Shown here piece by piece: positions 33,686-46,976 of a stretch of 53,645 bases of DNA. Position 1 is the stretch's first letter; every line of letters starts with the position of its first letter. Location: IMG/VR virus record IMGVR_UViG_3300027769_000039, positions 1 to 53,645 of that record; one strand, given 5' to 3'. Under the pieces are notes generated by a model. It made no database searches. It was not told the DNA's origin and saw nothing but the letters and a program-made list of their open reading frames with translations. The stretch comes from a virus. Lineage: Duplodnaviria > Caudoviricetes. A program made the translations under genes and the position numbers.

Positions 33686-35845
33686 TTATTGGTTCTTTAA
33701 TTTAGTCATGACATTCCAATAAGAACCTCTATAGTTAGCTCCGCTAATGTTATAGTCATTTGAATAACCAGTATTATATACTCTACCTGTAGATAAGTCT
33801 ACATAGAGACCAAATTTGTTACTTGAGTAACCAGTTGGGTAATATTTCCAATAGGAACGATATGCACTTTCCTGAATATGTGGAAATAACAAATTATTTT
33901 TCAATCGATAGTTTTCAGAAATATTATCTGGATCTCTCTTTTGTCTTTGGTTATAGGAATCGTTATGTCCCGAACCCCATGCGCCACCATTATTCGCATA
34001 TCCACAGAAATACCACTCACCATCACTTCTCTTGACTGCTGCATTAGTATAAGAAGAGGATCCAGTATTTGAAGCAAAATCTACCACATTGGTTAGAGCT
34101 GCTCCTGCTCTAAATTGAGTCTGCTGTAAAGTATTATACTGAGTGCTGTTTGCTTGACCAACCGACAGCTGATAGTAACCATTATATCCGCAAGAGTAGC
34201 AAGTATTGCTGCTATCGGAAGAACCTCTAGTTACATACATTGAACTGTATTGACCACCGAACATCCAAGCATTGTGGCAGTCTGTTATTAAATCTCCACT
34301 TGGACTTCCCATTTGTGGAGATGAGGTATCAACTGTTGTTGAAACACCAGAATATCCTCCAGTGTACACTTTTAGTGGGAAAGTTACATTATATGTATGA
34401 TTATGACCCAATGCTCCGTAACCATTATAACCCCAAGTGTACAGTGTACCATCTCGTCTAATCATTAGCATAGATACTACACTACCACCATTCGCTGCGC
34501 CACCAGTATTAAACTTTTTAATACCAGTTGTTGAGGTAGTTCCCCAAATATTGTTGCCATTGTCAATTTTAATTCCTGTTAAGGATGTTCGCTGCGATGT
34601 ATCACCAACACCAAGTTGACCATATCCATTATATCCGCAGGCATACATTTTTCCTTGGTCAGTTAATAACCAGAAGCAACCATAACCACCACCAGTTGCC
34701 CAAATTTCAATAATCTTACCATTCGTTGCTTGATCGAAAGAAACTAGAGTTGGCGCATAGTAGTCACTTGTGTTACCATGACCGAGTTGTCCGTATCCGT
34801 TATAACCCCAAGAATATAATTCACGAGTGTCATCGTTATTACGAACTAATGCGTAGTTAGATTTTGTGCTGTTTGTACCACTGGCCGATGATGCAATTCG
34901 AATAACTTTTTTAGTGCGTAGAATTGTAGTGGTATTTGATCTATTTACATTCGCATAACCGCATTGTGTAAAATTAGTATAGCCATTAGTATTTCCATGA
35001 CCACTTCCACCTTGGGCTTGATATCCACCAGCGTGAACTTCTCCATTGTCAAATAGAACTAACATTCCAGCATCTAAACCACCATCACTTTCAACCTGAA
35101 TTACTTTTGGTACTGGTTGCGTACCATTAATAGCAGTAGTAGGTAAAGAACCATCAAACCAACTTAAATGTGCAAATTGACATTCAGTAGGAGTTTGATG
35201 AGTACTTCCAGTTCCACCATTACTTAAATTTGAACTTGTATTTCTTCCATAAGTCATTATTGTATGTCTTCTGGTAATATACTGAATAGCACCATTACCA
35301 GCTAAGTCAATTCCAGGAGTTTTAAACTCACCAAAACTGTCGCCCATACCAACATAACTAACACCAGGAACAGCCAACGCATATGCATCCCAGACACTCT
35401 TATGAGTTGGGGCATAACCTTCGTTCGGTCCAAAAAGATAAGCAAACTTATCTCTCATTGTTCCTTCAGAAATCATTCTCCATCTAGTTGTTTGTACTTC
35501 AGGATATTCAGTTGTAGCACCAGCAGTATGTGCTAAAATACAAACATATGTGTTTTGTTCTAAGTAGTTGTGATGATCATTATATGGTCGAACAATTTTT
35601 CTAGTTACGATATCGCCAACTTTATATGCAGTAGTCCAAACCCACTCGCCTGCAAAATAAGTTCCTCTACCATAGTGGTACCAGTTAGTAAGATCTTCTT
35701 GCGGATTTGTTGCAGAAGTATGACTTGTAGTACAAAAATAAAAAGTATTTTTATATGTTACAACATCATCTTTTAAATATGCGGTTGAAACAACCCATTC
35801 ACCTCTTGGATTGAATCTTAACTTACCTAGAGTTACTTGTGCCAT
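33686..35845 (-). CDS. RCC1/BLIP-II-like repeat protein, 719 aa
   Basis: LYSWGYNGYGQLGHG, MYACGYNGYGQLGVG, LYTWGYNGYGALG; N-terminal LGKLRFNPRGEWVVSTAYLKDDVV. Confidence 0.85.
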   Translation of the reverse strand: MAQVTLGKLRFNPRGEWVVSTAYLKDDVVTYKNTFYFCTTSHTSATNPQEDLTNWYHYGRGTYFAGEWVWTTAYKVGDIVTRKIVRPYNDHHNYLEQNTYVCILAHTAGATTEYPEVQTTRWRMISEGTMRDKFAYLFGPNEGYAPTHKSVWDAYALAVPGVSYVGMGDSFGEFKTPGIDLAGNGAIQYITRRHTIMTYGRNTSSNLSNGGTGSTHQTPTECQFAHLSWFDGSLPTTAINGTQPVPKVIQVESDGGLDAGMLVLFDNGEVHAGGYQAQGGSGHGNTNGYTNFTQCGYANVNRSNTTTILRTKKVIRIASSASGTNSTKSNYALVRNNDDTRELYSWGYNGYGQLGHGNTSDYYAPTLVSFDQATNGKIIEIWATGGGYGCFWLLTDQGKMYACGYNGYGQLGVGDTSQRTSLTGIKIDNGNNIWGTTSTTGIKKFNTGGAANGGSVVSMLMIRRDGTLYTWGYNGYGALGHNHTYNVTFPLKVYTGGYSGVSTTVDTSSPQMGSPSGDLITDCHNAWMFGGQYSSMYVTRGSSDSSNTCYSCGYNGYYQLSVGQANSTQYNTLQQTQFRAGAALTNVVDFASNTGSSSYTNAAVKRSDGEWYFCGYANNGGAWGSGHNDSYNQRQKRDPDNISENYRLKNNLLFPHIQESAYRSYWKYYPTGYSSNKFGLYVDLSTGRVYNTGYSNDYNISGANYRGSYWNVMTKLKNQ

Positions 35846-35855
35846 TTATTATACC

Positions 35856-36188
35856 TTAGTATGTTGCAGTTAATTTGCCTGTTGTTTGATCGATGGCAAG
35901 TATTAATTTATTAGAGAAAAACGCAGAAAGAGCATTTTCAATATTAGTAGTCGAAGTGCTTGCTTCGCTACCAAGAATTTGGTTATGGATTAAATTACCA
36001 TTTGCGTCAACAGATAAAATGTTATATGCTGATACTGAGATTGGAGACCAAAGAGTACCATCATAAATTTCAGTAATAGATAAAGTAGTATTATAGCGAA
36101 CCATTCCCTGTACAGGAACATTCGGACGCTCTGCGGTAGTACCAACACCTATGGTAACATATTGATCGCCTAGGACTGTAGCTGGCAT
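35856..36188 (-). CDS. Small fibre-module protein (110 aa)
   Basis: GTTAERP...GMVRYNTT...EIYDGTLW module typical of aquatic T4-like fibre proteins. Confidence 0.7.
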   Translation of the reverse strand: MPATVLGDQYVTIGVGTTAERPNVPVQGMVRYNTTLSITEIYDGTLWSPISVSAYNILSVDANGNLIHNQILGSEASTSTTNIENALSAFFSNKLILAIDQTTGKLTATY

Positions 36189-37243
36189 TATTTAACTCCT
36201 TTTAAGTCTTCTATTTCTCTATTTAGGTCTTTTATTGCTTCTATTAACAGGGGAATTAACTTGTCATATTGCACTGTTAGATAGTTTTCTCCAGAACGAG
36301 AAATTTCTGTATTTTCAAACATAACAAGATCAAATGGAGCTGGCTTAACTGCTTCTGGCAAAACCCTCTTTACATCTTGGGCTATGACGCCAACTTCATT
36401 TTGTTTTTTGTAACCTAATTCTTCTGCGATAGTATTTGGTTGATACGTAACACCACGAAGCGACATTACTTTTTCTAGAGCATTTGTAATTACTTGAATA
36501 TTTTCTTTTAATCTCTCATCCGAATAGTATGATGTAATTTGGTTGGTTGCTCTAATTTCTCCAGTAGTTCCAGACGCAGCAGTTCCAACACCTAATGATC
36601 CAAACTGCACATTAGACGAAGAAGATGTATCTTGTGGAGTTGATAAAGTAATACTACCAGAAGCATTGGTAACTGTTATTCTGTTTGGTGTTCCTGTTAG
36701 TGTGGTACAAGCATATAGTCCAGCAGAAGTTCCAATTAAAATTGATCCATTAACAGGGACAGTATTTGTTCCCGAACCACCTTGCGCTGGATGCAATGGT
36801 GTAGTTAAAGTAAGAAGTTGAGCCTGTATTGAACCAGCAGAAAACCCACCATCTAAATCGCGACGAACTACTTTGTTTGCAGTATTTGTGCTAGTAGCAT
36901 CTGCCAACTCTAATTTATAGTCGTTTAATCTAATAAAATTGGTGTCAATTTCAACGCTAGATAACGGAGAACCTTTTACAGTAATTCCATTACTATTAAT
37001 AGTATAAGTGGATGATGTTACTGTAACAGCTGCATTGCTGACTAAAGTAATTGTGGTATTACTATTGACGCTGTTAACAGTACCAATGGTAACACCAGCT
37101 CCAGTCTTTAATACCTGTCCAGGAACAACTTCAGTTAAGAATTGTGATCCAGAACCTGTGATAGTTAGACTGGAAGTATTGGAAGATATCGTTCCAGTTC
37201 CGTTGGTGATACCTGTGGTTAATCTAGTTACGATTGTAGTCAT
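36188..37243 (-). CDS. Short fibre protein with C-terminal intramolecular chaperone (peptidase S74-like), 351 aa
   Basis: KGSPLSSVEIDTNF; YYSDERLKENI...GVIAQDVKRVLPEAV...YDKLIPLLIEAIKDL. Confidence 0.85.
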   Translation of the reverse strand: MTTIVTRLTTGITNGTGTISSNTSSLTITGSGSQFLTEVVPGQVLKTGAGVTIGTVNSVNSNTTITLVSNAAVTVTSSTYTINSNGITVKGSPLSSVEIDTNFIRLNDYKLELADATSTNTANKVVRRDLDGGFSAGSIQAQLLTLTTPLHPAQGGSGTNTVPVNGSILIGTSAGLYACTTLTGTPNRITVTNASGSITLSTPQDTSSSSNVQFGSLGVGTAASGTTGEIRATNQITSYYSDERLKENIQVITNALEKVMSLRGVTYQPNTIAEELGYKKQNEVGVIAQDVKRVLPEAVKPAPFDLVMFENTEISRSGENYLTVQYDKLIPLLIEAIKDLNREIEDLKGVK

Positions 37244-37310: not shown

Positions 37311-38057
37311 TTATATCAACAAACTTTCTATTTTGTTAAACAACTGTATTCTGGCTTGGATTGCTTCTATTGCAGCCTGCTCAGCTTCATGTATAAGAAT
37401 TGGGTCGTTTTTGCAGAAGTAATTCACCAAATTTTCTGACATTGACCCATGTTCTTCTCCATCTACCTGTATATGTCTTTCCAAATAATAATGGAACTTT
37501 GGTGCTTCGGTCTCTGATATATTTATTTGGTTCAGTATACGCTTAAACATGGATGGAATTACCGTCTCTCGACCATAAGAAAACGATGCTGCAGCACAAT
37601 GTGGTCCACCACGAATTGCCTTAAATGTAGTTTCTATAAAGTCGGCAACTATTTCTGGTGCACCAAAATGAACACCCTGTTTTTCGACTTTAGACAAGTA
37701 TTCTTGGATAGGAATAGTGTCAGCGTTTACTTCCAACATTGCTTGTAAATACAAGTCGAAGTGGCTTATTGAACTGTTTCCATCAGGACTTGTATCAGTT
37801 TCCTCACAAAGAACAATCTCATTAATAGTTCTGGCTATATCGGAGCGAGTTCCTCTAGTCGGTAACCATAGCTGGCTCGAGGGAACTGTAGCATGTTGCA
37901 GTGTCTTCAATAAACTCATAAAGTCCCAGACTGCGAATACATGATACTTCATAAAGATTCTCAGATCTTCAACGGACTGTATTGTATTTGTTACCAATAA
38001 CGAATGATTCTCAAGTAGAGATTTGTGCTGTTGGATTTTGGTTAAATCTATTCTCAT
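37311..38057 (-). CDS. DUF3050-like protein (heme-oxygenase-like fold, putative iron enzyme)
   Basis: FMKYHVFAVWDFMSLLKTLQ, INEIVLCEETD, SHFDLYLQAM, FSYGRETVIPSMF, YYLERHIQVDGEEHG. Confidence 0.85.
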   Translation of the reverse strand: MRIDLTKIQQHKSLLENHSLLVTNTIQSVEDLRIFMKYHVFAVWDFMSLLKTLQHATVPSSQLWLPTRGTRSDIARTINEIVLCEETDTSPDGNSSISHFDLYLQAMLEVNADTIPIQEYLSKVEKQGVHFGAPEIVADFIETTFKAIRGGPHCAAASFSYGRETVIPSMFKRILNQINISETEAPKFHYYLERHIQVDGEEHGSMSENLVNYFCKNDPILIHEAEQAAIEAIQARIQLFNKIESLLI

Positions 38058-38070
38058 TATGTATAAAACC

Positions 38071-38126
38071 CTAAATAAGTCTATTGTAGAGCTACCTAAA
38101 TATGTATAATATAAGGACTATTTATG
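38071..38126. promoter_or_regulatory. Divergent control region: two plus-strand CTAAATA (38071-38077, 38096-38102), TATAAT (38105-38110), AAGGA Shine-Dalgarno, and minus-strand CATAAATA (38119-38126)
   Basis: Motifs read directly from the sequence; they match the late-promoter-like motifs upstream of structural genes in this window. Confidence 0.5.
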
Positions 38127-38510
38127 CCAACAATAACAAGGGTTACCAGTGGGATGATCGCCCCAGCGCAAGATGTAATACAGACTAGAGTAGACGCTTT
38201 GCGTTCTAGATTTACAGCTGGTAATATAATTCTAGCGTCGGATGTAAATGAACTAAACAGCATTTTTACCCTGTTTGATGACCACTATCACCAGACAGTA
38301 GACTATGCTTTTGAGGCATATGGAAACCTTGGATACACAACATATTATAACACAAATCCAGAAAATACTGGAAGTTTAGTTGCGTCAGAAGTTCAAATTG
38401 TTGCAGGTGAGGTTGCCGTTGGAGATGTAATTACTGCAGAATATCATGACAAACTTAGAATAATGTATGAGGGAGCAGATGCTCATACTCATGCTATCAC
38501 TGATAATTAA
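38124..38510 (+). CDS. Small protein (128 aa) with two G-x-x-I-x-A...HxH modules
   Basis: AGNIILASDVNELNSIFTLFDDHYH and VGDVITAEYHDKLRIMYEGADAHTH; AAGGA Shine-Dalgarno. Confidence 0.8.
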   Translation: MPTITRVTSGMIAPAQDVIQTRVDALRSRFTAGNIILASDVNELNSIFTLFDDHYHQTVDYAFEAYGNLGYTTYYNTNPENTGSLVASEVQIVAGEVAVGDVITAEYHDKLRIMYEGADAHTHAITDN

Positions 38511-38527
38511 GATAAGGTAAACAACTA

Positions 38528-38725
38528 ATGTCTGTTGAACAAAGCATTAATACAAATATCACAGTAACTACTAAAGAAGTTGGTGATGATATTACTCCTG
38601 ACACTTTTTTACAAATGTTAAATATTTTAGAAAATTTAACAGACCATACTCATATCTTTTATGACGATTATGGAACAGCTTGTAACTGTAATTGTGCTTG
38701 CGCATGCGGAAGAGGAATCATATGA
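38528..38725 (+). CDS. Cys-rich peptide (65 aa), candidate radical SAM substrate/precursor
   Basis: VGDDITPDTFLQMLNILENLTDHTH followed by IFYDDYGTACNCNCACACGRGII; AAGG Shine-Dalgarno; ATGA overlap with the next gene. Confidence 0.8.
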   Translation: MSVEQSINTNITVTTKEVGDDITPDTFLQMLNILENLTDHTHIFYDDYGTACNCNCACACGRGII

Positions 38726-39675
38726 AAAACTATTTTTTTATTAAAACAGAACCAACAGTAAATAAAACATGGGCAGATGTATGCGAGGGGTTAAACTCTT
38801 ATTACGCTGGACCAAATCCTGGATTACAAAATACAGATTTGGGTGGATATACTGATCAAGAACAACAAATTTACAGTTATGTTAAGATTGACAGAAAGTT
38901 GGGATTATATAAAACTGAAACTAACACACTGGCAATTGCTGTAACTTCTCCAGTTGTTGGACAAACACTTGGCGTTAGCGAATTAGATCTAGAACTAATT
39001 AAAGAAAAATTAGACTCTGGTGTTAAGACTGTTTATTTCGGTTACCTATTTACTACAGAGTCAGTTACTCAACTGCAAGTTGTAGATAACTCTGTGTACT
39101 TCGGAAGAAATCCAATCGACAATGTTCTTACCAATTTTAATGACAACACTCCGATAGAAGGTAATGTATCTTCTGCTGTCTGGATGGCATTTTACAAAAT
39201 TAAAGATAGCAATGTATATTTTGTTGTATTAAATGATACTTTAGTAGACTCTACTGTAGTTCGCGACTCAGTTTCTGAAGCTGATTTAAAAACTGAAGAT
39301 AATATTATTGAGTTTGTAAATAGTCATGATGGTGGATTTAAAGATTCAGTATTTAAACCAACTATTACTGGCGGAACTTTTATTGGTAAAAATATTATAG
39401 TTACCAGCGAAAACGAATTAACACTAGATGTTTTTGGTCGTTCTGCATTTCATATGATTAATGCTGGTGTAACTGTTAAAGATGCCGATCTTCCTGAGAT
39501 AGATCTTTTGGTAGAATCGTCTGCAGAAATTGAAGTAAACAAAAATAAAATTTCTATAACAATCTCTGATCCAATATCTACTTTGCAATATAAGTGGAAT
39601 ACTGGTTCTGAACTTGACTTTATTTTGTCTGAAGAAAATAAATTACAATACGATTTTGTTATACTTAAAGTATAA
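38722..39675 (+). CDS. Hypothetical protein (317 aa; start reassigned to MKNYFF at 38722)
   Basis: GAGGA Shine-Dalgarno and ATGA coupling to the peptide's stop codon; beta-rich, no recognised motif. Confidence 0.75.
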   Translation: MKNYFFIKTEPTVNKTWADVCEGLNSYYAGPNPGLQNTDLGGYTDQEQQIYSYVKIDRKLGLYKTETNTLAIAVTSPVVGQTLGVSELDLELIKEKLDSGVKTVYFGYLFTTESVTQLQVVDNSVYFGRNPIDNVLTNFNDNTPIEGNVSSAVWMAFYKIKDSNVYFVVLNDTLVDSTVVRDSVSEADLKTEDNIIEFVNSHDGGFKDSVFKPTITGGTFIGKNIIVTSENELTLDVFGRSAFHMINAGVTVKDADLPEIDLLVESSAEIEVNKNKISITISDPISTLQYKWNTGSELDFILSEENKLQYDFVILKV

Positions 39676-39698
39676 TCTTTTCTCATCATTATTATGGA

Positions 39699-41423
39699 AT
39701 GAATATGTTAGAACAACCAATCGTATTTCATCGTAAGTTAAGTGTATCTCAAGCCAAAAGAATCAATGAAGACCACAAAGCATCAGTTATAGTTGATGAT
39801 ACTGGAAAATTTGATTATCTTACAGAAAACATAGTTACCCCAAAGGGTTTAACTAAACAAAATAAAAAAATATCAATACTGCCTTCTCCAGAGGAGAGGG
39901 TAGTTTCATTTAAAGATGCTGATTATTTGTTTAGCGAACTTGGTCAAATGAATGTTATCTTAACAAATGCCTGCAATCTTTCTTGCACATATTGTTATGA
40001 ACAACACAACAAAGACTTTGGTAGATTTACCGAAGAATCCCTACTACAAGCATACAACTTTTTACTAAACAATTCTTTAGTAGAACGCAAACGCATGCAG
40101 TTTTTCGGTGGAGAACCACTAATCCACAAAGATTTAATCTTATCATTCTTAAAAAATAACAAAGATTATTTACAATCAAATGCTGACTGTGGTTGTCAAG
40201 TTATAAACATGATAACAAATGGAATACTCCTTACTCCAGAATTTATGGATGAGTATTTTAATTATACCTTCACATATATGATGATAAGTTTAGACACATT
40301 AAGAGTTGACTTAGACCATCGAGAAATCACTCAAAAACAATTAGATGATATTCTAGGTAAAGTAGAATCGTTACCAGACCATGCGAAAGAAAGAATTCAT
40401 TTTAGATGCACTTTGTCTAGAGAAACTGCACCACATTTTTTAGAATATTGTAAGAAACTAAACGAAATAGGTGTTCGTGCTTTAATTATACATCCACTGA
40501 TTCTAGATTCTCAGCGTGGTTTTATAAAATGGCCAGATGTAGAATGGAACAAATTACATAAAGATATTCTTACTGCATTGGATGTATATCCAAATATGTC
40601 TATATCATTCTCAGAAGGTGTTGGTAGAAAATACGAAAATAATTGCATGATTGGTTCAGACATGATTGCCATAGATGCATCAGGCGATTATTCTGGATGC
40701 TATTTCTTTACAAACCAAAAAGCCAATGGTGCTGATATTGCCATTCTTGGGAATATATTCCAAGATAAACTCTATATTGATCGGTACAAAACTTTCCAAA
40801 ATTTATTTAATGAGATGTTGGAAACCCAAGAACAATGTAGAACATGTAATTACAAAAACGCTTGCTATCAATGCCCAGCTGGAAATCTAGATACTGGTTC
40901 AGCTATGTTTAGACCAGATGACATGTGTCAAAGTATTGTTAAATTGTATCTAGATTTACAAAATGATATTACTAAAAAGAATTATAAAAATAAATTTGGT
41001 CTTCTGTTAAAATCTTGCAAAGAAGAATCAGAAGAACTTGTGTTTACACGAGCATTGATTCATTTAATGTATCGCATGAGCACTAATATCTTTACTACTA
41101 CTGAAGAGATTAACGAACACTTGCATAAATGCAAGCCAGAAAATTTGGCGTATTCGTGGAAACGCATGGTCGAAACTAAACAAAGACCAAAGGCAAAAAC
41201 TGTTGCAGAATTCCTAGAAGAAATTGATCTGTCTGGAGAATTAGATCTTCAATCGTTATACCACTTCTTGACTGTTTCAATTGGTATACCAAAAACTGCA
41301 GATATGGATATGAGCAACTTAGTAGTTCGTGTTGGTTATTTGACTTTACTCCACATGTTAGTATTGAATAAAGAGAGTAAACTTTTTGAAGATTCACCTA
41401 TTGAAAAACTATTTTCTAAATGA
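39699..41423 (+). CDS. Radical SAM/SPASM-domain protein 1 (574 aa)
   Basis: CNLSCTYC, FFGGEPL, ITNGILL; auxiliary cysteines NCMIG...GCYFF...CRTCNYKNACYQCP...MC; N- and C-terminal extensions. Confidence 0.93.
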   Translation: MNMLEQPIVFHRKLSVSQAKRINEDHKASVIVDDTGKFDYLTENIVTPKGLTKQNKKISILPSPEERVVSFKDADYLFSELGQMNVILTNACNLSCTYCYEQHNKDFGRFTEESLLQAYNFLLNNSLVERKRMQFFGGEPLIHKDLILSFLKNNKDYLQSNADCGCQVINMITNGILLTPEFMDEYFNYTFTYMMISLDTLRVDLDHREITQKQLDDILGKVESLPDHAKERIHFRCTLSRETAPHFLEYCKKLNEIGVRALIIHPLILDSQRGFIKWPDVEWNKLHKDILTALDVYPNMSISFSEGVGRKYENNCMIGSDMIAIDASGDYSGCYFFTNQKANGADIAILGNIFQDKLYIDRYKTFQNLFNEMLETQEQCRTCNYKNACYQCPAGNLDTGSAMFRPDDMCQSIVKLYLDLQNDITKKNYKNKFGLLLKSCKEESEELVFTRALIHLMYRMSTNIFTTTEEINEHLHKCKPENLAYSWKRMVETKQRPKAKTVAEFLEEIDLSGELDLQSLYHFLTVSIGIPKTADMDMSNLVVRVGYLTLLHMLVLNKESKLFEDSPIEKLFSK

Positions 41424-42517
41424 ATTATAGTCAAGATCTAAACAATGTAAACACAATCGCAATATACTTAGGAAATACTTGCAATTTTAATTGCACATAT
41501 TGTGATCGGGAGTATATCTCTGAATCTATTGGTGGCCAGAATTTCACAAACCACCATCTAAATCTCCTTACAAACTTTTTTGAACAAATCTATAAAGAGT
41601 CAACTCTCACAATAGATAGAGTCGCATTGCATGGTGGCGAACCATTTTTGTATGTGAAAAGAATGGATCAGATTTTAGAAAGAATTAAACCATATCTCGA
41701 CAAATATAATCTTTATGTTTCTATCACTACAAACGCTTCTCTGGTTTTAAAAGAAAAAGAGTTTGTTAACAAGTGGAGTAAATATATTCGGTTTACATTT
41801 AGTTACGATTTTATCTTCCAGGAAACGAATCGCGAATCTGTTGAAATCCATAAGGTTATTGATTTCTGCAATTCATTGGATATTCCAATTCACTGGCAAT
41901 TTGTAATCCCAGTTACCAATAAAAAAGCATTTAGTTTAGAATTAATTAAAGATATTATAGACAAGGTTCATCGTTGCAAAATTATCAAATCTTTGAATCT
42001 TATTCCACTTCGTCATACCAGAGGTAAAGATAAATTTGAAGTTTATGTTGATGAGTTAGATCTTAAACAATTTTATGATGCATTCATTCGATTCGTTAAT
42101 ACATTATACAATTATAATATTATGGTGTTTATTGATGGCAATTATGGCAAGATAGATAAAAATTATCTTGACCAACACTATAAGATTATACTATCACCTG
42201 ATGGTTTCATTTATCCAGAATATGATTTTTGCGAATACAAAACAACAGAGTTTCAAATTGGTAGATGGACGGATGGATTATCGCCAAATTTTATTCCTAC
42301 CATAAACAAAAAAGAATACACAAACTATAAAGAAAAGTGCAACACTTGTTCTTCCAAAGAAACTTGTGGTTTAAAATATTTGTATTCTATGTTTGACAGA
42401 GAGCCAGCAGTTAAGTGCGAAATGTTCTATAAGATTATAGATACCATGGTCAATTATGTGGCTAAATTGAATAGTAAACCAAACTTCTTAACATGGATTA
42501 ACGATGGCCACAGATAA
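41420..42517 (+). CDS. Radical SAM protein 2 (365 aa) with a degenerate SPASM-like tail
   Basis: CNFNCTYC, LHGGEPFL, ITTNASL; ILSPDGFIYPEYDFC...CNTCSSKETC...KC. Confidence 0.9.
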   Translation: MNYSQDLNNVNTIAIYLGNTCNFNCTYCDREYISESIGGQNFTNHHLNLLTNFFEQIYKESTLTIDRVALHGGEPFLYVKRMDQILERIKPYLDKYNLYVSITTNASLVLKEKEFVNKWSKYIRFTFSYDFIFQETNRESVEIHKVIDFCNSLDIPIHWQFVIPVTNKKAFSLELIKDIIDKVHRCKIIKSLNLIPLRHTRGKDKFEVYVDELDLKQFYDAFIRFVNTLYNYNIMVFIDGNYGKIDKNYLDQHYKIILSPDGFIYPEYDFCEYKTTEFQIGRWTDGLSPNFIPTINKKEYTNYKEKCNTCSSKETCGLKYLYSMFDREPAVKCEMFYKIIDTMVNYVAKLNSKPNFLTWINDGHR

Positions 42518-43616
42518 GCGTCAAATTATTGATGACGAACAAATGAGTTCTCGTGAGTATTTTATACGAAACGACAATTTAAACAGCGTTCACACTGAGT
42601 TATCTTTTTCTATACTAAGAAGATATAACTGTTTTGCTGGCTGTAAAATATGTTACATTGATAAAAATTTTGAAAAAGATAAAGAGAAATTTAGTAGGTT
42701 TATTCCAACTGAAATCCCAAAAGAAATAGAAGATTCTTGGGATACCATATTTAAACATTACAGAATAGTATCAACTATTGATGATCTATATTGGATAAAA
42801 CACAAACAACCAGAGTTATATACTTGGTATAAAAACAATGCATACAGGTTTCACTTTGGAACTCTAACTGACAATTCATTTGTAAGAAATTATGATATTT
42901 TTATGAATGAGTTAATTAGTTACAAAACTTTTCCAGAAGTAACTTTTTCTGATGCATTTTTAGTTAAAGTTAATATTGAGGAAATACTGAATAAACTGAA
43001 TGTTATTCAGAAACGATTTGGAATTAAATTGATGAAATTGGTTCAAACTAATTTAAACTCTCATGAGTGGGAACCTGTAAAGAAGTTTATTGATTGGTCA
43101 AAAACTAATGCAGAAGAGTTTAGCATTCATTACGATTTTACTAAATTTGATACTTTAGACACTGGTCAAAAAGATCAAGAAACTGTATTCGCTACATTTA
43201 ATTCAGAGTTATACAACTTATGTGGCGAAATAGATTATTTGCAATATGACTCTTTCTTTTTAACATTGCCAGAATCAACAGATATTACATCAACTCCTTA
43301 CCATACTATTGAAGACGGATTTAATCCAAAAAAACATCTGTCTGATCATCTAAAAGGAAAGATAACTTTATATGCTAAGTATGCTGAGAAACTAAAATAT
43401 TCAATCAATAAAAATAAACAATTTTATGGATATTTTAAATGGGTTTCAGAAAATTTAATAGTTAATGATGATTATACATATATCCCAATATTATCATTAA
43501 AAAACTTTCATCCTTATTATGAACAACTGCAACAAAATGGATGGACCTCTACCAATGCTGGATTATTACTGACAGGTGCCAAATATGTTAAACCAATTTT
43601 TAATTTTAAATCATGA
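42504..43616 (+). CDS. Divergent radical SAM-like protein 3 (370 aa)
   Basis: N-terminal CFAGCKIC (CxxxCxxC) in the usual position, but no GGE motif and only one further cysteine. Confidence 0.6.
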   Translation: MATDKRQIIDDEQMSSREYFIRNDNLNSVHTELSFSILRRYNCFAGCKICYIDKNFEKDKEKFSRFIPTEIPKEIEDSWDTIFKHYRIVSTIDDLYWIKHKQPELYTWYKNNAYRFHFGTLTDNSFVRNYDIFMNELISYKTFPEVTFSDAFLVKVNIEEILNKLNVIQKRFGIKLMKLVQTNLNSHEWEPVKKFIDWSKTNAEEFSIHYDFTKFDTLDTGQKDQETVFATFNSELYNLCGEIDYLQYDSFFLTLPESTDITSTPYHTIEDGFNPKKHLSDHLKGKITLYAKYAEKLKYSINKNKQFYGYFKWVSENLIVNDDYTYIPILSLKNFHPYYEQLQQNGWTSTNAGLLLTGAKYVKPIFNFKS

Positions 43617-44968
43617 GTGAATATACAATTAGTCTGGCAAGTTTAAAGCGTAAACTAAAACCAGAGCCAGACAAGATACCAATGTTCGATAGAACTCCAG
43701 AGAGTTGGAGTAAGTTCAAAGTTAAAAATACTGGTAGAGTGTTTTATTATTCAAACTACGACAATGGTTTATATGATGCGAATAAAAATGCACTATCAGT
43801 TATTGCTGAGCCAGATGCCGAATATTACGCAACGATTTCTGAAACTAGATCCAGAGTAAAATCAAATAAACCATTTTGGATTAGAATTCTTCTTGGTCAT
43901 GCATGCAATTATTCTTGCTCTTACTGCATGCAAAAAGATATTGGTAATCCCGACGAACGAGAAAAAATTACTACTACTGATTATTTTATTGAACAGTTGG
44001 GTAAACTTGATATGAGTCGTTTGCAAAAAATTGATTTGTGGGGTGGCGAAACATTATTGTACTGGAAAACTATCCAAGAAATTATGAGAAAGTTTGACCG
44101 AGAAGGTCTTGAGTGGTATATTCCAACAAATGGAACTCCGCTTCAAATGAAACATATTGAATTTTTTAAAACATTAAAAAGTAAAGTTGGAATTAGTATT
44201 TCGCATGATGGTCCAGGACACGAAAGACTTCGTGGCGAAGAGTTCTTACATAAGAAGGTTGATGTTTTAAGAGCCATGATTGACAATGATATTCAATTTA
44301 GTTTCAATCCAGTAATCAGTAAAACGAATTATAATTTGTTTGATATTAATAAGTTTTTCTATGACTATTGTGAACAGAATGGTATTGATTACAGTAAAAT
44401 TGGAATTAATTGGATAGTTGGACACAACCATGATTATGAAAATATACACAACTCTGCAGACCATGTAATTGGTGGAGAGTCTTTAGAGAAGTTTGGTGAA
44501 GTTATTCTTGAATATATGGATAAATGTATTGAACAATTTATTCAAGGAAAAGATAATAAGTTATTTAAAAACTCACTATTCACTGGCAGTATGGGAGTTA
44601 TTCCATACACAAAAACATTAAAGCAACAAATACTTCCAACATCTTCCACATCTTGCGGAGTAGATGATGAGGGTGTTTTATCTGTAGATATTAAAGGTAA
44701 TGTCCGCACTTGTCCTCATACTGATGAGTCGTTTATTGGGGGACATTTGGAAGATCTTGAGAATGTTAAACTCAAGAATATTGATTTAGATAGATACGAA
44801 AAACATTGCAAATCTTGCTCAGTCTTTCGTTTGTGTAAATCTAATTGTCCTATTGAAGTTCCTGATGAAGTTTTCTTTAGTAACTGTGCTATTGAAAAAA
44901 CATACCACAGAGCAGTTCAAGAAACTGCATTTAAAATTTTGTTTGGTGGTGAAGTAGAACTAATTTAA
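43613..44968 (+). CDS. Radical SAM/SPASM-domain protein 4 (451 aa)
   Basis: CNYSCSYC, LWGGETLL, PTNGTPL, ISHDGP; SCG...VDIKGNVRTCPH...CKSCSVFRLCKSNCP...NC. Confidence 0.93.
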   Translation: MSEYTISLASLKRKLKPEPDKIPMFDRTPESWSKFKVKNTGRVFYYSNYDNGLYDANKNALSVIAEPDAEYYATISETRSRVKSNKPFWIRILLGHACNYSCSYCMQKDIGNPDEREKITTTDYFIEQLGKLDMSRLQKIDLWGGETLLYWKTIQEIMRKFDREGLEWYIPTNGTPLQMKHIEFFKTLKSKVGISISHDGPGHERLRGEEFLHKKVDVLRAMIDNDIQFSFNPVISKTNYNLFDINKFFYDYCEQNGIDYSKIGINWIVGHNHDYENIHNSADHVIGGESLEKFGEVILEYMDKCIEQFIQGKDNKLFKNSLFTGSMGVIPYTKTLKQQILPTSSTSCGVDDEGVLSVDIKGNVRTCPHTDESFIGGHLEDLENVKLKNIDLDRYEKHCKSCSVFRLCKSNCPIEVPDEVFFSNCAIEKTYHRAVQETAFKILFGGEVELI

Positions 44969-45484
44969 TACTAAATCAAAAGCAATACATTTTCTTGTAA
45001 TGTTGCTAGTATTAGTATCAACCCAGTGATTAATCCAACCTGGAAATATGATAAGATCATTTGTGGATGGCGTAATCATATATCTAGTATCTCCCAACAA
45101 TTTTCCAAATTGATCAGGATTTTCCAAATACAAATTGCCAGAATTTTCTGCTTGTAAATAATATACAGCAGAATATACAACTATCTGTTGGTTGGGATTT
45201 ATATGATTGTGTGAAATAACAGAAGTATTGGGTTTGCTTTCAGAAATCCAATAATTTTGAATTTTAACATTTGAATTAATTGATTTAAATAAAGTATGCA
45301 ATTTGGAAGTTATCTGCATATCTTTATTTGACAAGTCGGTTTCAATTCCACCTATTGTCTCATCAACACCTAAATGTTTTGTTATAGATGATATAGAATT
45401 AAGTTCATCATAACAATTTTTTAATTCTTCATCAGTTAAAAAATTACGAAAGTGCCACAGAGGCACTCCAAACAGTTTATTCAT
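44960..45484 (-). CDS. Putative 2OG-Fe(II) oxygenase (start probably MNKLFGVP at 45484)
   Basis: LFGVPLW, YWI, SHNH, YSAVYYL, LIIFPGWINHWV, RKCIAFD; TAATG coupling to the upstream gene. Confidence 0.85.
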   Translation of the reverse strand: MNKLFGVPLWHFRNFLTDEELKNCYDELNSISSITKHLGVDETIGGIETDLSNKDMQITSKLHTLFKSINSNVKIQNYWISESKPNTSVISHNHINPNQQIVVYSAVYYLQAENSGNLYLENPDQFGKLLGDTRYMITPSTNDLIIFPGWINHWVDTNTSNITRKCIAFDLVLN

Positions 45485-46746
45485 TACAGAATAACACACT
45501 CCACAACTTTAACACCAGCGTCATCGTTAGATTCTAAAGCAATCGCAAACGAATTGCTAGTATCTCCATGGATACCCTTACCATCTTGATTGCAAATTAA
45601 TGGTTGTCCTTTACGAATCGGACCAACAACTTTCACTGGCACACGACCACGAAGAGCAATTGCTTGACCAGGTGCTTCATCATTCATTAAGAATGCTGGA
45701 TTTGTGGAAACTACACCAAGAACTCTTTGACCAGTTTGGAAAGATGCAGTTGCTTCAGCATCGCCAGATAAAGCAACTGTTAGAACAGTCCCAGGTTCAT
45801 ATTCTACATCAGTTGTATATTTTTCTGCCAAGTCAGCATACTTAGCTGAGGTTGCAGTACCATAGATTGTTCCGAACCGATTTGCTGTTTGTCCAATATC
45901 ACCTGTACCATTTGTTCCAGTTTTAAAAATTGAAGCGACTGACACAAATGTTGCTGCAGTAACAGAATTTACAGAAAGTGTAGCAGAAGTTGAAATATCA
46001 ATAACAGGGTTTCCTGAAACGCCATCACCATTAACAATAGTAATTCCATTTGTACCAGCAGTAAATGTTCTTTCAGTAACTGATCCAGTGCCAAGACGAG
46101 TATAAAATCCTATAGAAGTGGAAGCACCAGCAATAGCAGTTAATTCGTTAGAGAATGGTTGAACATCAGAACCGATAGATAATCCTAAATTGGCTCTTGC
46201 TGATGTAGCATTTGATGCGCCAGTTCCGCCATCGGCAATCGCCAAGTCAGTAATACCAGTAATAGTTCCACCAGTAATTGCAATAGCGTCAACATTTTGA
46301 GTAGCAGCAGTTCCCAATCCAAGACCAGCTCTTGCTGTGGCTTCTGTCGTACCACCTGTTCCACCATTATTGATAGCAACAGTTCCATTAACATTGCTCG
46401 CATTACCAAAAACTGTGCCAGTTAAATTTCCTGTAATGTTACCAGTAACATTACCAATTAAAGTTGTAGCAGTAATTGTTCCTGCAGAGAAGTCGCCATT
46501 TGAATCGCGAACAACTACAGTACTAACAGTATTTCCTGTGGCTGACTGAAATCCATCAATAGTATCAGCATCTAATCCAGAACCAGAACCATCAACTGTT
46601 TTGATTTTGGTCAAAACATCCAAAGCAGTGTAGTTTGATGCAGTTAATTTTGTTCCGACTTCCACATTAATATTGTTGAAGTTGTCGTCGACCTCTTGAT
46701 TTGTAAGAGGACTACCTTTAACATTTCGAAGAACGATTGTTGCCAT
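45484..46746 (-). CDS. Fibre/baseplate-associated protein (420 aa)
   Basis: LRNVKGSPLTNQEVDDNF, DGSGSGLDADTIDG, two GGTG..ARAxLGL repeats, C-terminal AKYADLAEKY...GVVSTNPAFLMN...IALRGRVPVKV domain. Confidence 0.75.
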   Translation of the reverse strand: MATIVLRNVKGSPLTNQEVDDNFNNINVEVGTKLTASNYTALDVLTKIKTVDGSGSGLDADTIDGFQSATGNTVSTVVVRDSNGDFSAGTITATTLIGNVTGNITGNLTGTVFGNASNVNGTVAINNGGTGGTTEATARAGLGLGTAATQNVDAIAITGGTITGITDLAIADGGTGASNATSARANLGLSIGSDVQPFSNELTAIAGASTSIGFYTRLGTGSVTERTFTAGTNGITIVNGDGVSGNPVIDISTSATLSVNSVTAATFVSVASIFKTGTNGTGDIGQTANRFGTIYGTATSAKYADLAEKYTTDVEYEPGTVLTVALSGDAEATASFQTGQRVLGVVSTNPAFLMNDEAPGQAIALRGRVPVKVVGPIRKGQPLICNQDGKGIHGDTSNSFAIALESNDDAGVKVVECVIL

Positions 46747-46976
46747 TATTCTTTACCTTTAATCAGTATTTCGAGCATTTTCTTAATTTCAGTTATATCT
46801 TGTTCTAAGTTATTTATTCGCTCAGATTGACGACTTAATTCATTTGTTTTAGACAAAGCTGCCTGCTTGTTTTTAATATAGTTCTGATAATCAGAAGTAT
46901 TATTATTTAAAATTGCATTAGAAGACACATCCCTAACAAGAGATGTGTTTTGTTCAACTTTTAATAATTGTCCCAT
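46746..46976 (-). CDS. Small coiled-coil protein following the large structural gene (start probably MGQLLKV at 46976)
   Basis: LVRDVSSNAILN...YQNY...INNLEQDITEIKKML; TAATG overlaps on both sides. Confidence 0.75.
   Translation of the reverse strand: MGQLLKVEQNTSLVRDVSSNAILNNNTSDYQNYIKNKQAALSKTNELSRQSERINNLEQDITEIKKMLEILIKGKE

What the first reader, a model, noticed from the sequence alone, without database searches (positions are those of the whole stretch)
38528..38725. Candidate precursor with an alternating (Cx)4C core: YDDYGTACNCNCACACGRGII
Seen: all five cysteines of the 65-aa peptide sit in a strict CxCxCxCxC run (38681-38707) at the C-terminus, after an acidic Cys-free leader-like part and an aromatic FYDDY patch. 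The codons vary (tgt aac tgt aat tgt gct tgc gca tgc), so it is not a simple DNA microsatellite. Inference: leader/core organisation. The alternating cysteines could form thioether crosslinks, within a chain or between chains of an oligomer, or could be a metal-binding tip.
Basis: partly seen in the sequence, partly recalled or inferred. Interest (0 to 1): 0.85.

Follow-up and report, generated by a model that had tools for sequence, protein, structure and literature searches.

The report
Phage cysteine-ladder peptide with radical-SAM enzymes
A small, strongly conserved phage gene encodes a mini-protein that ends in a ladder of alternating cysteines and always sits beside four radical-SAM enzymes in tail-fibre gene clusters, so it is probably an enzyme-cross-linked peptide of a kind not yet described.

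Summary
ORF 38528-38725 (+) encodes 65 aa, and its five cysteines form one CxCxCxCxC run (38681-38707). The gene is real: 300 of 300 pairs of homologous ORFs show pN below pS, and a profile search finds 76 clusters. In 29 related loci, including Ralstonia jumbo phage RP12 (where the ORF is unannotated) and one Bdellovibrio MAG, the peptide is followed by the same four radical-SAM genes. All four keep CX3CX2C, and two have full SPASM cysteine sets.

The "leader" is not an ordinary leader. Residues 4-46 are homologous to the C-terminal helix-HxHxxxD module of the neighbouring 128-aa protein (hhalign 95.7%, E 9e-9). Other phages encode single-chain forms in which a p128-like protein carries the Cys tail.

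The window's operon has no protease or exporter. By sequence proxies, 27 of 29 loci have tail-fibre genes nearby.

Best reading (0.55): a substrate mini-protein that docks on p128, is cross-linked (thioethers) by the rSAM enzymes, and is kept whole, probably for fibre function. The chemistry is untested.

I rate it a new variant of a known kind, interest about 0.72.

The parts
38071..38102 (+). Two CTAAATA motifs 20-50 nt upstream of the operon's first gene. They may be late-promoter-like elements.
   Evidence: 10 CTAAATA sites in the window, all in the direction of the local genes, two of them here. There is no overall enrichment (10 found against 14.3 expected). The identification with T4-like cyanophage late promoters is recalled, not tested.
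38124..38510 (+). p128: a 128-aa partner protein with two helix-HxHxxxD modules (invariant H54 H56 D60 G67 H121 H123 D127).
   Evidence: Alignment A3. AF2 model with pLDDT 82: three helices plus a hairpin. No known fold, no Pfam or NCBIfam family, only phrog_31780 of unknown function. A p128-like gene lies upstream of the peptide in 29 of 29 loci. The family has 348 clusters.
38528..38725 (+). The 65-aa Cys-ladder peptide (the finding).
38537..38665 (+). Residues 4-46 of the peptide: a docking module (variable S/T-rich start, GDxIT, amphipathic helix, HxHxxxD) paralogous to p128 residues 80-127.
   Evidence: hhalign of A1 against A3: probability 95.7%, E 9.2e-9, 46 columns.
38681..38707 (+). 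The alternating CNCNCACAC run, followed by the conserved x-R-G-x-x tail (38708-38722).
   Evidence: C52 C54 C56 C58 C60 R62 G63 are invariant in A1. The run has 3-6 Cys across the family, and 5 residues follow it in 63 of 84 members.
38722..39675 (+). p317: a beta-rich, fast-evolving 317-aa protein of unknown function. Its start overlaps the peptide's stop.
   Evidence: No Pfam, NCBIfam or PHROG family. AF2 pLDDT 81, pTM 0.83. Only the C-terminal 206-317 resembles generic Ig-like sandwiches, Z<=6.9. The best viral match is the RP12 295-aa protein, TM 0.73/0.78, E 5.8e-20.
39699..41423 (+). rSAM574: radical SAM enzyme with a full SPASM domain.
   Evidence: Pfam Radical_SAM, Fer4_12 and SPASM. 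The best NCBIfam hit is the PapB ranthipeptide maturase at 99 bits, against a cut-off of 340. CX3CX2C is kept in 27 of 27 homologues, together with a conserved 7-Cys set.
41420..42517 (+). rSAM365: radical SAM enzyme with a 4-Cys C-terminal (twitch-like) motif.
   Evidence: CX3CX2C is kept in 23 of 23 homologues, and CX2CX5C..C is conserved.
42504..43616 (+). p370: a divergent radical-SAM-like protein with CX3CX2C only and no auxiliary-cluster cysteines.
   Evidence: No Pfam or NCBIfam hit. phrog_36229, unknown function. CX3CX2C is kept in 23 of 23 homologues.
43613..44968 (+). rSAM451: radical SAM enzyme with a canonical SPASM motif (CX2CX5CX3C).
   Evidence: TIGR04085 SPASM domain at 28.9 bits, cut-off 27. 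CX3CX2C is kept in 22 of 22 correctly assigned homologues. The closest solved chain is 8vpo_A, E 1.3e-9.
37311..38057 (-). DUF3050 (haem-oxygenase-like, 'MgoB-like') gene, divergent from the operon. It may be an accessory oxidase.
   Evidence: Pfam DUF3050, E 2e-73. It lies next to the cassette in 10 of 29 related loci. RP12 ORF80 is annotated as MgoB in PMC5468394.
36188..37243 (-). Flanking tail-fibre gene (context).
   Evidence: PHROG tail-fibre families, best E 5.4e-31.
45484..46746 (-). Flanking tail-fibre gene (context). Homologues flank the cassette in many related loci.
   Evidence: PHROG tail-fibre family phrog_19602, E 2.8e-19. tblastn hits in related loci.

Best explanation
The ORF is a real, translated gene. 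It encodes the substrate mini-protein of a conserved, mobile cassette: p128, the peptide, p317, four radical-SAM enzymes, and sometimes a haem-oxygenase-like or rubrerythrin-like di-iron protein.

The first ~46 residues are a folded docking module (amphipathic helix plus HxHxxxD), a paralogue of the C-terminal module of p128. Through this module the peptide associates with p128. Together the two proteins hold three such modules, and some phages encode them in one chain.

The C-terminal strand, at a fixed distance from the HxH, presents 3-6 alternating cysteines. I infer that the SPASM-type enzymes convert these thiols into thioether (ranthionine or sactionine type) cross-links to the intervening Asn/Gln/Asp/Glu/Ala or nearby Asp/Tyr residues. 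The other two rSAM proteins would add further cross-links or tailoring.

I also infer that the product is not cleaved and exported like a classical RiPP. It would stay as a small cross-linked protein that works with the neighbouring fibre proteins, as a rigid tip, adhesin part or assembly factor.

Shown: the gene, its conservation, its synteny, the module homology, the single-chain forms and the intact enzyme motifs. Inferred: that it is a substrate, the thioether chemistry, that the module is retained, and the fibre role (my odds for the fibre role alone are about 0.3).
For: - **Gene reality and conservation:**
- **Synteny:** 23 of 29 related loci show all four rSAM genes in the same order after the peptide (one of the 23 is cut by the contig end). 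The other 6 contigs end inside the cassette, and no locus lacks a gene internally.
- **RP12:** it has the same order, ORF074 / unannotated 65-aa ORF / ORF075-079. Its ORF075 matches the p317 model at TM 0.73/0.78.
- **Enzyme motifs:** CX3CX2C is kept in 27/27, 23/23, 23/23 and 22/22 homologues. SPASM cysteine sets are present in two of the enzymes.
- **Closest enzyme families:** the best NCBIfam matches are peptide maturases acting on Cys (PapB 2.7e-28, nif11-peptide rSAM, QhpD).
- **Module homology:** the peptide's residues 4-46 match the p128 C-terminal module at 95.7%, E 9e-9.
- **Single-chain forms:** P0050 aligns to the p128 profile over 89 columns (97.1%, E 6.7e-11) and continues into a Cys run. 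P0039 has three HxH motifs and a terminal Cys run (its hhalign match is only 53%).
- **Fixed geometry:** the first His lies 12 residues before the first Cys in 83 of 84 members.
- **Intervening residues:** N 96, A 43, Q 24, E 10, D 8, T 3 in 46 peptides. NxxcB's native acceptor Asn and its tolerated Ala, Gln and Asp are all among them (passages of PMC9389541).
- **Predicted p128-peptide complex (weak support only):** ipSAE 0.52, best of 3 controls 0.00. The mark was reached by 58 of 80 solved complexes and 2 of 110 mismatched pairs. At 0.60 or under it was reached by only 7 of those 80 solved complexes and by both mismatches that passed. The runs agree in at least 77% of contacts, and the partner's pLDDT is at least 58. 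My own alignments were used, so these counts hold only roughly.
- **No peptidase or transporter:** none among the nine ORFs from 37311 to 45499.
- **Fibre context:** tail-fibre-like genes lie near the cassette in 27 of 29 loci by sequence proxies. Both flanks in the window are tail-fibre genes. S74-chaperone fibre genes lie 9-13 kb away in the Bdellovibrio contig.
- **RNA library:** contigs of one RNA library lie on p128, the peptide and p317, 38115-39521. DNA carry-over is not excluded.
Against: - No modification has been observed, and none can be computed.
- All enzyme matches are far below the curated family cut-offs.
- No RRE/PqqD-like leader-binding domain was detected in the N-terminal extensions.
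- The predicted complex is only weakly supported, and no contacts were given.
- Alternating Cys next to HxH could equally be metal ligands.
- The fibre link is by neighbourhood only. In the Bdellovibrio contig the nearest fibre-type genes are about 9 kb away, and the immediate flanks look like ordinary cell genes.
- A Cys-proteinase-fold gene lies near that cassette, so cleavage is not excluded.
- p317 has no assigned role.
- The virion proteomics of RP31 is in supplements that I could not open.
Confidence: 0.55

Rival explanations
1. Classical RiPP. The N-terminal module is a true leader, derived from a protein in the way NHLP/Nif11 leaders are. It guides the rSAM enzymes and is then cut off by a host or unlinked protease. 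The small cross-linked core is released at lysis as an antibacterial, signalling or metal-scavenging compound that benefits the phage.
For: The precursor-like layout and the adjacency to SPASM rSAM genes. The second-best NCBIfam hit of rSAM574 is the nif11-like peptide maturase. The cassette occurs in one cellular genome without adjacent fibre genes, where a Cys-proteinase-fold gene lies nearby. Phage lysis makes an exporter unnecessary (inference).
Against: There is no peptidase in the window's operon, and I saw none between p128 and the last rSAM gene in the loci listed; that listing was cut for four loci and was not scanned family by family. No double-Gly or other cleavage motif is conserved between the module and the run: the linking residues YDDY-x-T-x are themselves invariant or nearly so. 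Single-chain forms of 100-230 aa, and a form with about 195 residues after the run (P0052), argue for a protein-level product.
Confidence: 0.2
2. Metal or Fe-S binding mini-protein. The cysteines stay as thiols and, with the HxH motifs of the peptide and p128, bind a metal ion or cluster. The peptide would act as a scaffold, an electron-transfer partner or a metal-dependent fibre tip. The four rSAM enzymes would act on another substrate (p128, p317, a fibre protein or a small molecule).
For: The His, Asp and Cys residues are invariant and at fixed spacing. In a beta-strand, alternate residues face one side, which would give a thiol ladder (structural reasoning). HxH motifs bind Fe or Zn in trimeric phage fibres (recalled: T4 gp37 and gp12). 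Di-iron proteins (DUF3050, rubrerythrin-like) accompany the cassette.
Against: CxCxCxCxC is not a known Fe-S or rubredoxin motif (recalled). The number of Cys varies from 3 to 6, which is unusual for a fixed metal site. The closest enzyme families are Cys-peptide maturases. No other Cys-rich candidate substrate lies in the operon: p128 has no Cys.
Confidence: 0.12
3. Peptide-derived cofactor. As in PQQ or mycofactocin biosynthesis, the rSAM-SPASM enzymes and the haem-oxygenase-like oxidase would build a redox-active or chelating small molecule from the invariant Tyr/Asp (YDDY) and Cys residues. The rest of the peptide would be discarded.
For: The YDDY motif is invariant. A SPASM rSAM occurs with an HO-like oxidase. 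rSAM365 has weak hits to cyclophane-forming maturases, YhhB 1e-10 and XyeB 1e-6. The architecture of the PQQ pathway is recalled.
Against: DUF3050 is adjacent in only 10 of 29 loci. There is no PqqB, PqqC or PqqD homologue and no peptidase. The length of the Cys run varies, whereas a cofactor precursor is usually fixed. The single-chain forms also argue against it.
Confidence: 0.08

Closest known systems
Ranthipeptides and their maturases (PapB/freyrasin, CteB/thermocellin)
   Same: A Cys-rich ribosomal substrate next to a radical SAM enzyme with a SPASM domain. PapB is the best NCBIfam match of rSAM574 (2.7e-28). Asx/Glx-type acceptor residues lie beside the Cys.
   Different: The score of 99 bits is far below the cut-off of 340. 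There are four rSAM genes instead of one. The substrate has an alternating Cx run rather than Cx3D-type motifs (recalled). No RRE was detected. The system is phage-borne, sits in fibre modules and has no protease or exporter.
QhpC/QhpD (gamma subunit of quinohaemoprotein amine dehydrogenase)
   Same: A small Cys-rich polypeptide is cross-linked Cys-to-Asp/Glu by a SPASM rSAM enzyme and kept as a subunit of a protein complex (recalled). QhpD is the third-best NCBIfam hit (2.3e-19).
   Different: 69 bits against a cut-off of 453. There are no dehydrogenase subunits, no signal peptide and no CTQ-forming context. The partner here is p128.
CrpA/CrpC of Methanococcus voltae (PMC13692751, abstract read)
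   Same: A SPASM rSAM enzyme installs ranthionine cross-links on a Cys-rich protein rather than on a short cleaved peptide.
   Different: It is an archaeal cellular system with one enzyme and an unrelated substrate sequence. No homology was tested here.
StsA/StsB sactipeptide with a CxCxC...GxGxG core (PMC10288494, passages read)
   Same: Alternating cysteines in the core, with three Cys-to-Gly sactionines forming a hairpin ladder.
   Different: The GxGxG acceptor strand is absent here; only G-R-G follows the run. StsB is MftC-like. The phage enzymes were not compared with it.
NxxcA/NxxcB beta-thioether system of streptococci (PMC9389541, passages read)
   Same: The Asn-x-x-Cys spacing occurs twice in the window's run (N53..C56 and N55..C58, read from the sequence). 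NxxcB's native acceptor Asn and its tolerated Ala, Gln and Asp are all among the residues found between the cysteines here.
   Different: The Nxxc system makes a single cross-link, is regulated by quorum sensing and has one enzyme. No sequence match to NxxcB was seen among the 25 NCBIfam rows shown per enzyme.
HxH metal sites of trimeric phage fibres (T4 gp37 tip, gp12) and NHLP/Nif11 protein-derived leaders (both recalled)
   Same: HxH motifs in a fibre-gene context, and a 'leader' that is homologous to a real protein domain.
   Different: Here the HxH follows an alpha-helix in a small non-fibre protein. No fold match to any fibre was found, and no metal was tested.

Membership tests
rSAM/SPASM thioether RiPPs (ranthipeptides and sactipeptides) | Cys-containing ribosomal substrate encoded next to the maturase | tested here: met
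   The peptide is followed by the rSAM genes in 29 of 29 loci; 6 loci are cut by contig ends.
rSAM/SPASM thioether RiPPs (ranthipeptides and sactipeptides) | Maturase with CX3CX2C and a SPASM domain for two auxiliary clusters | tested here: met
   Pfam Radical_SAM plus SPASM. The cysteine sets are conserved in rSAM574 and rSAM451.
rSAM/SPASM thioether RiPPs (ranthipeptides and sactipeptides) | Score above the curated cut-off of a named maturase family (PapB 340, QhpD 453, CcpM 500 and others) | tested here: not met
   The best score is 99.2 bits for PapB. All listed families are below their cut-offs.
rSAM/SPASM thioether RiPPs (ranthipeptides and sactipeptides) | RRE (PqqD-like) leader-recognition domain | tested here: inconclusive
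   No Pfam hit in the N-terminal 85 or 90 residues at E<=10. Sequence search alone often misses RREs, and no fold was made for these parts.
rSAM/SPASM thioether RiPPs (ranthipeptides and sactipeptides) | S-C thioether cross-links in the product | not testable with these tools
   Needs mass spectrometry after co-expression.
Classical RiPP (leader removed) | Leader peptidase and/or exporter in the cluster, or a conserved cleavage motif | tested here: not met
   No peptidase or transporter family among the nine ORFs 37311-45499. The linker residues are invariant rather than a cleavage motif. Single-chain forms exist. The other loci were inspected only by ORF listing.
StsA-type CxCxC sactipeptide | CxCxCx4GxGxG core | tested here: not met
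   No GxGxG follows the run in any of the 23 aligned peptides. The motif is taken from PMC10288494.
Trimeric fibre HxH metal site (T4 gp37/gp12 type) | HxH within a trimeric beta-structured fibre that binds Fe or Zn | tested here: inconclusive
   HxH motifs are present and invariant. The p128 model is a helical bundle plus a hairpin, with no fibre match. Oligomer state and metal were not tested.
PQQ/mycofactocin-type peptide-derived cofactor | PqqD/MftB-type chaperone, a dedicated peptidase and a fixed acceptor pair | tested here: not met
   No such families were found in the operon.

The most novel reading that the evidence does not exclude
The cassette is a maturation system for a virion or fibre component. 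The Cys-ladder peptide and p128 form a pseudo-trimeric three-module (6 His, 3 Asp) assembly. Its C-terminal strand is stapled by four radical-SAM enzymes into a rigid thioether-knotted tip or adaptor of a phage tail fibre, and of S74-type fibres in a predatory bacterium. This would be the first RiPP-type radical cross-linking of a phage adsorption apparatus.
Probability: 0.25. Interest if true: 0.9.

Novelty: new variant of a known kind. Interest (0 to 1): 0.72.

Why it matters
Radical-SAM genes are numerous in large environmental phages; one T4-like marine genome with 12 is mentioned in PMC5332604 (passage read). In the library I could search, none of them has an assigned peptide substrate.

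This family gives a concrete, testable substrate for four such enzymes at once. It shows a 'leader' that is really a paralogue of a partner protein. It also ties the system to fibre gene modules in unrelated phage lineages and in a Bdellovibrio genome.

If the product is a cross-linked fibre part, post-translational radical chemistry would become a factor in phage adsorption. If it is a free RiPP, it is a new, widespread phage-made compound class. Either way, the enzymes are candidates for new Cys cross-linking chemistry on an unusually simple repeating motif.

Tried and rejected
**DNA and protein searches that found little**
- The DNA search of the cassette against isolated phages found nothing. 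By protein, only RP12 and RP31 match.
- No fused form was found by the word-indexed 'longer' search. The exhaustive profile search did find longer forms.
- PDB sequence searches with the peptide, p128 and their profiles gave only chance-level rows.
- rSAM574 and rSAM365 have no PDB relative at E<=1e-3.

**Fold and feature searches**
- p317 has no real match in Foldseek pdb (TM<=0.23). Only its C-terminal domain resembles generic Ig-like sandwiches.
- p128 has no match (best Foldseek E 1.7; VIA Z<=5.5).
- The Atlas searches gave only unnamed viral clusters and weak leads: PF27846 at 0.76, and Gp53-like_C/H_lectin at 0.82.
- hhalign of p128 against the RP12 tail-fibre ORF073 showed no homology (probability 1%), even though ORF073 contains an HTH..DY stretch.

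**Promoters, terminators and expression**
- TATAAATA and CTAAATA are not enriched in the window. Only their orientation is suggestive.
- The sigma-70 scan is not above the shuffles.
- In the RNA-library run X20 no contig lay on 39613-43210.
- A joint skipping 40988-43593 in one DNA contig has a side of only 21 letters, so I disregard it.

**Readings rejected**
- A chance ORF or DNA microsatellite is rejected.
- Defence-type viperin is rejected: scores of 50-57 bits against a cut-off of 180.

**Literature**
- Full-text searches found no paper describing this peptide family or a phage rSAM-peptide cassette. This holds only for the held library.
- The RP12 paper (PMC5468394; section 14 read, plus term searches) names ORF76, 77, 79 and 80 only by similarity and does not mention the small ORF. 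Its virion-proteome tables are supplements, which are closed, and they may bear on whether ORF074 or ORF075 homologues are virion proteins.
- I read only term-search passages of PMC11118758, PMC10769870 and PMC5332604.
Full report
**The observation**

The window is a 53.6-kb fragment of an uncultivated virus, with completeness estimated at 34%. Its only five cysteines form one CxCxCxCxC run at 38681-38707, coded by mixed TGT/TGC and AAC/AAT/GCT/GCA codons. This pattern occurs once in the six-frame translation of the window and in none of 50 shuffles. An SD-like AAGG precedes the ATG, and the TGA stop overlaps the ATG of the next gene.

**Is it a gene?**

- The word-indexed protein search returned 23 of 23 candidates with the same architecture.
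- A degenerate-pattern scan found 27 viral loci and one locus in 185,579 species genomes, a Bdellovibrio MAG contig.
- tblastn found an unannotated 65-aa ORF in Ralstonia jumbo phages RP12 and RP31.
- An exhaustive profile search of 1.84 billion representatives gave 76 clusters at E<=1e-3 and 41 at E<=1e-10. One, P0097, is a false positive.
- Over the conserved 35 codons of 25 distinct ORFs, pN is below pS in 300 of 300 pairs, with median pS 0.91 (saturated) and pN 0.27.

The gene is under protein-level purifying selection.

**Anatomy of the family**

Invariant residues in the 23-sequence alignment are M30, L34, L37, H40, T41, H42, Y45, D46, D47, Y48, the five Cys, R62 and G63. Among 97 family sequences (P0001-P0098 without P0097):

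| Feature | Count |
|---|---|
| Alternating run of 3 Cys | 14 |
| Run of 4 Cys | 16 |
| Run of 5 Cys | 41 |
| Run of 6 Cys | 13 |
| No run (truncated or divergent) | 13 |
| First His of HxH exactly 12 residues before the first Cys | 83 of 84 |
| Exactly five residues after the run | 63 of 84 |

In 46 distinct peptides the residues between the cysteines are N 96, A 43, Q 24, E 10, D 8 and T 3.

**The neighbourhood**

The peptide is the second gene of a tight + strand operon:
- p128 (38124-38510)
- the peptide
- p317 (38722-39675)
- rSAM574, with Radical_SAM and SPASM domains
- rSAM365
- p370
- rSAM451

A divergent DUF3050 gene lies upstream and a 2OG-Fe(II) oxygenase downstream.

The best NCBIfam matches of rSAM574 are the PapB ranthipeptide maturase (2.7e-28), the nif11-peptide maturase and QhpD. 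All are far below their curated cut-offs. p370 has no family hit but carries CX3CX2C.

Across the related loci CX3CX2C is kept in 27/27, 23/23, 23/23 and 22/22 homologues of the four proteins. rSAM574 and rSAM451 keep full SPASM cysteine sets, rSAM365 keeps four C-terminal Cys, and p370 keeps none.

All four genes follow the peptide in the same order in 23 of 29 loci. The other six contigs end inside the cassette. A p128-like gene lies upstream in 29 of 29 loci. It is truncated in L020 and longer, with extra domains, in L015/16, L026 and L027. A ~300-aa p317-like gene lies before or after the peptide. The RP12 counterpart, ORF075, is recognisable only by fold: TM 0.73/0.78, E 5.8e-20, 13% identity. 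DUF3050 is adjacent in 10 of 29 loci. A rubrerythrin-like gene sits in three others.

**The 'leader' is a paralogue of p128**

p128 has two helix-HxHxxxD modules, with invariant H54, H56, D60, G67, H121, H123 and D127. Its model has pLDDT 82 and shows three helices and a hairpin.

Profile-profile comparison aligns peptide residues 4-46 with p128 residues 80-127 at 95.7% probability, E 9.2e-9. The peptide is therefore 'the C-terminal module of p128 plus a Cys tail'.

The exhaustive search also found single-chain versions:
- P0050 (120 aa) aligns with the p128 profile over 89 columns (97.1%, E 6.7e-11) and runs on into a Cys run.
- About nine similar two-module proteins exist.
- P0039 (230 aa) has three HxH motifs and a terminal Cys run. 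Its match to the p128 profile is only 53%.
- P0093 (390 aa) has a glycine-rich insert and is cut before the run.
- In P0052 the run is followed by about 195 further residues.

A predicted p128-peptide complex gained weak support only. The ipSAE was 0.52 against 0.00 for the best of three controls. The mark was reached by 58 of 80 solved complexes and 2 of 110 mismatched pairs, but at 0.60 or under by only 7 of those 80 and by both mismatches that passed. The runs agree in at least 77% of contacts, and the partner's pLDDT is at least 58. I used my own alignments.

**Fibre context**

- In the window the operon lies between tail-fibre genes (36188-37243 and 45484-46746) and RCC1-repeat proteins with tail-fibre N-termini.
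- By two proxies, 27 of 29 loci have a fibre-type gene within the fetched flanks. The proxies are homology to the window's fibre genes, and an ORF ending in a W-R/K-Q-x-Y/W-P motif.
- That motif-bearing ORF ends within about 1.5 kb upstream of the peptide in 13 loci, which is just before p128 in the loci whose ORFs I listed.
- In L015 that ORF hits T7 tail-fibre and YadA-stalk families.
- The immediate flanks of the Bdellovibrio cassette look cellular. However, three genes with Peptidase_S74 fibre-chaperone domains and one more p370-like gene lie 9-13 kb downstream.
- S74-type fibres are known adhesins of B. bacteriovorus (PMC10769870, passages read).
- Two CTAAATA motifs precede p128. All 10 such motifs in the window point with the local genes, but the motif is not enriched. 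Its reading as a late promoter is recalled, not tested.

**Occurrence and expression**

Near-identical DNA is held by freshwater metagenome runs of several studies. I laid three independent ones (X6, X7, X10), and they cover most of the stretch. One RNA library (X20) has contigs on DUF3050, p128, the peptide (243 bases, one differing letter) and p317. DNA carry-over cannot be excluded, so this is a hint of transcription, not proof.

**Interpretation**

The peptide is most likely the substrate of the rSAM enzymes. Four points make a discarded leader unlikely:
- the homology of its N-terminal part to p128;
- the single-chain forms;
- the invariant linker;
- the lack of a peptidase or exporter in the window's operon.

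I read the peptide as a docking module that brings the Cys strand to p128 and to the enzymes, and that stays in the product.

Thioether formation is the chemistry of the nearest enzyme families. The spectrum of residues between the cysteines includes all the acceptors that the Asn-x-x-Cys beta-thioether enzyme NxxcB uses or tolerates: Asn natively, and Ala, Gln and Asp (PMC9389541). Asn-x-x-Cys occurs twice in the window's run.

Protein-level ranthionine cross-linking by a SPASM enzyme has a precedent in CrpA/CrpC (PMC13692751, abstract). Alternating Cys forming a sactionine ladder has a precedent in StsA (PMC10288494).

The role with fibres rests on neighbourhood alone. The rivals are a cleaved diffusible RiPP, an unmodified metal-binding mini-protein, and a peptide-derived cofactor. 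The sequence data do not exclude any of them.

**Novelty**

The peptide has no Pfam, NCBIfam or PHROG family. p128 and p370 hit only PHROGs of unknown function. No solved relative exists. Four full-text searches found no description. The kind of system, an rSAM/SPASM-modified Cys peptide, is known. This variant is new in four respects: it is phage-borne, it has four enzymes, its module is a paralogue of a partner protein, and it sits in a fibre context.

Noticed in passing
L001:7941-8138 (Ralstonia phage RP12, AP017924): A 65-aa ORF homologous to the peptide, with a four-Cys run, lies between ORF074 and ORF075. It is not annotated in the record.
   Followed up: yes
L032:5-3788 and L032:3841-4971 (rest of the Bdellovibrio MAG contig): Three genes with Peptidase_S74 fibre-chaperone C-termini (one also has a pilin-type N-methylation motif) and one further p370-like CX3CX2C gene lie 9-13 kb downstream of the cassette.
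   Followed up: partly
L026:7122-8282; L015:8581-9939; L027:8994-9878: These are longer p128-like proteins. One has a Gly_rich_2 domain inserted between the two HxHxxxD modules. One has a C-terminal extension with a Hint (intein-like) fragment. One has a ~160-aa C-terminal extension.
   Followed up: partly
L002:6448-7236 (also L004, L012): A 262-aa rubrerythrin-like (di-iron) gene sits inside the cassette between p128 and the p317-like gene. DUF3050 was found beside the cassette in L012 but not in the fetched parts of L002 and L004.
   Followed up: no
window 28222-30345, 31012-33669, 33686-35845 (-): Three large proteins combine RCC1-type repeats (PHROG 'regulator of chromosome condensation') with tail-fibre-like N-termini in two of them. 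They may be beta-propeller receptor-binding fibres.
   Followed up: partly
window 46976-53494 (-): A giant 2172-aa ORF matches phrog_358 (unknown function) over residues 2-1667 with E = 0.
   Followed up: no
window 39878-39904 (+): A strong terminator-like hairpin (12 pairs, 6 G-C) lies about 180 nt inside the 5' part of rSAM574. It could attenuate enzyme expression relative to p128, the peptide and p317.
   Followed up: no
window 44960-45499 (-): A 2OG-Fe(II) oxygenase gene converges on the end of the operon, overlapping rSAM451 by 9 nt. It was not included as a query in the synteny scans, so its link to the cassette is unknown.
   Followed up: no
p128 model, Foldseek pdb rank 26: A 25-residue stretch aligns at 44% identity to a 27-residue chain of a Photorhabdus PVC baseplate-fibre complex (9qgo_A). 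At E 4.8 this is not significant, and I could not see which p128 residues align.
   Followed up: no
L030:10134-10652 (-): A secreted protein with an AIM3/BBC1 Cys-proteinase fold lies about 0.8 kb beyond DUF3050 in the Bdellovibrio contig. It is the only protease-like gene seen near any copy of the cassette.
   Followed up: no
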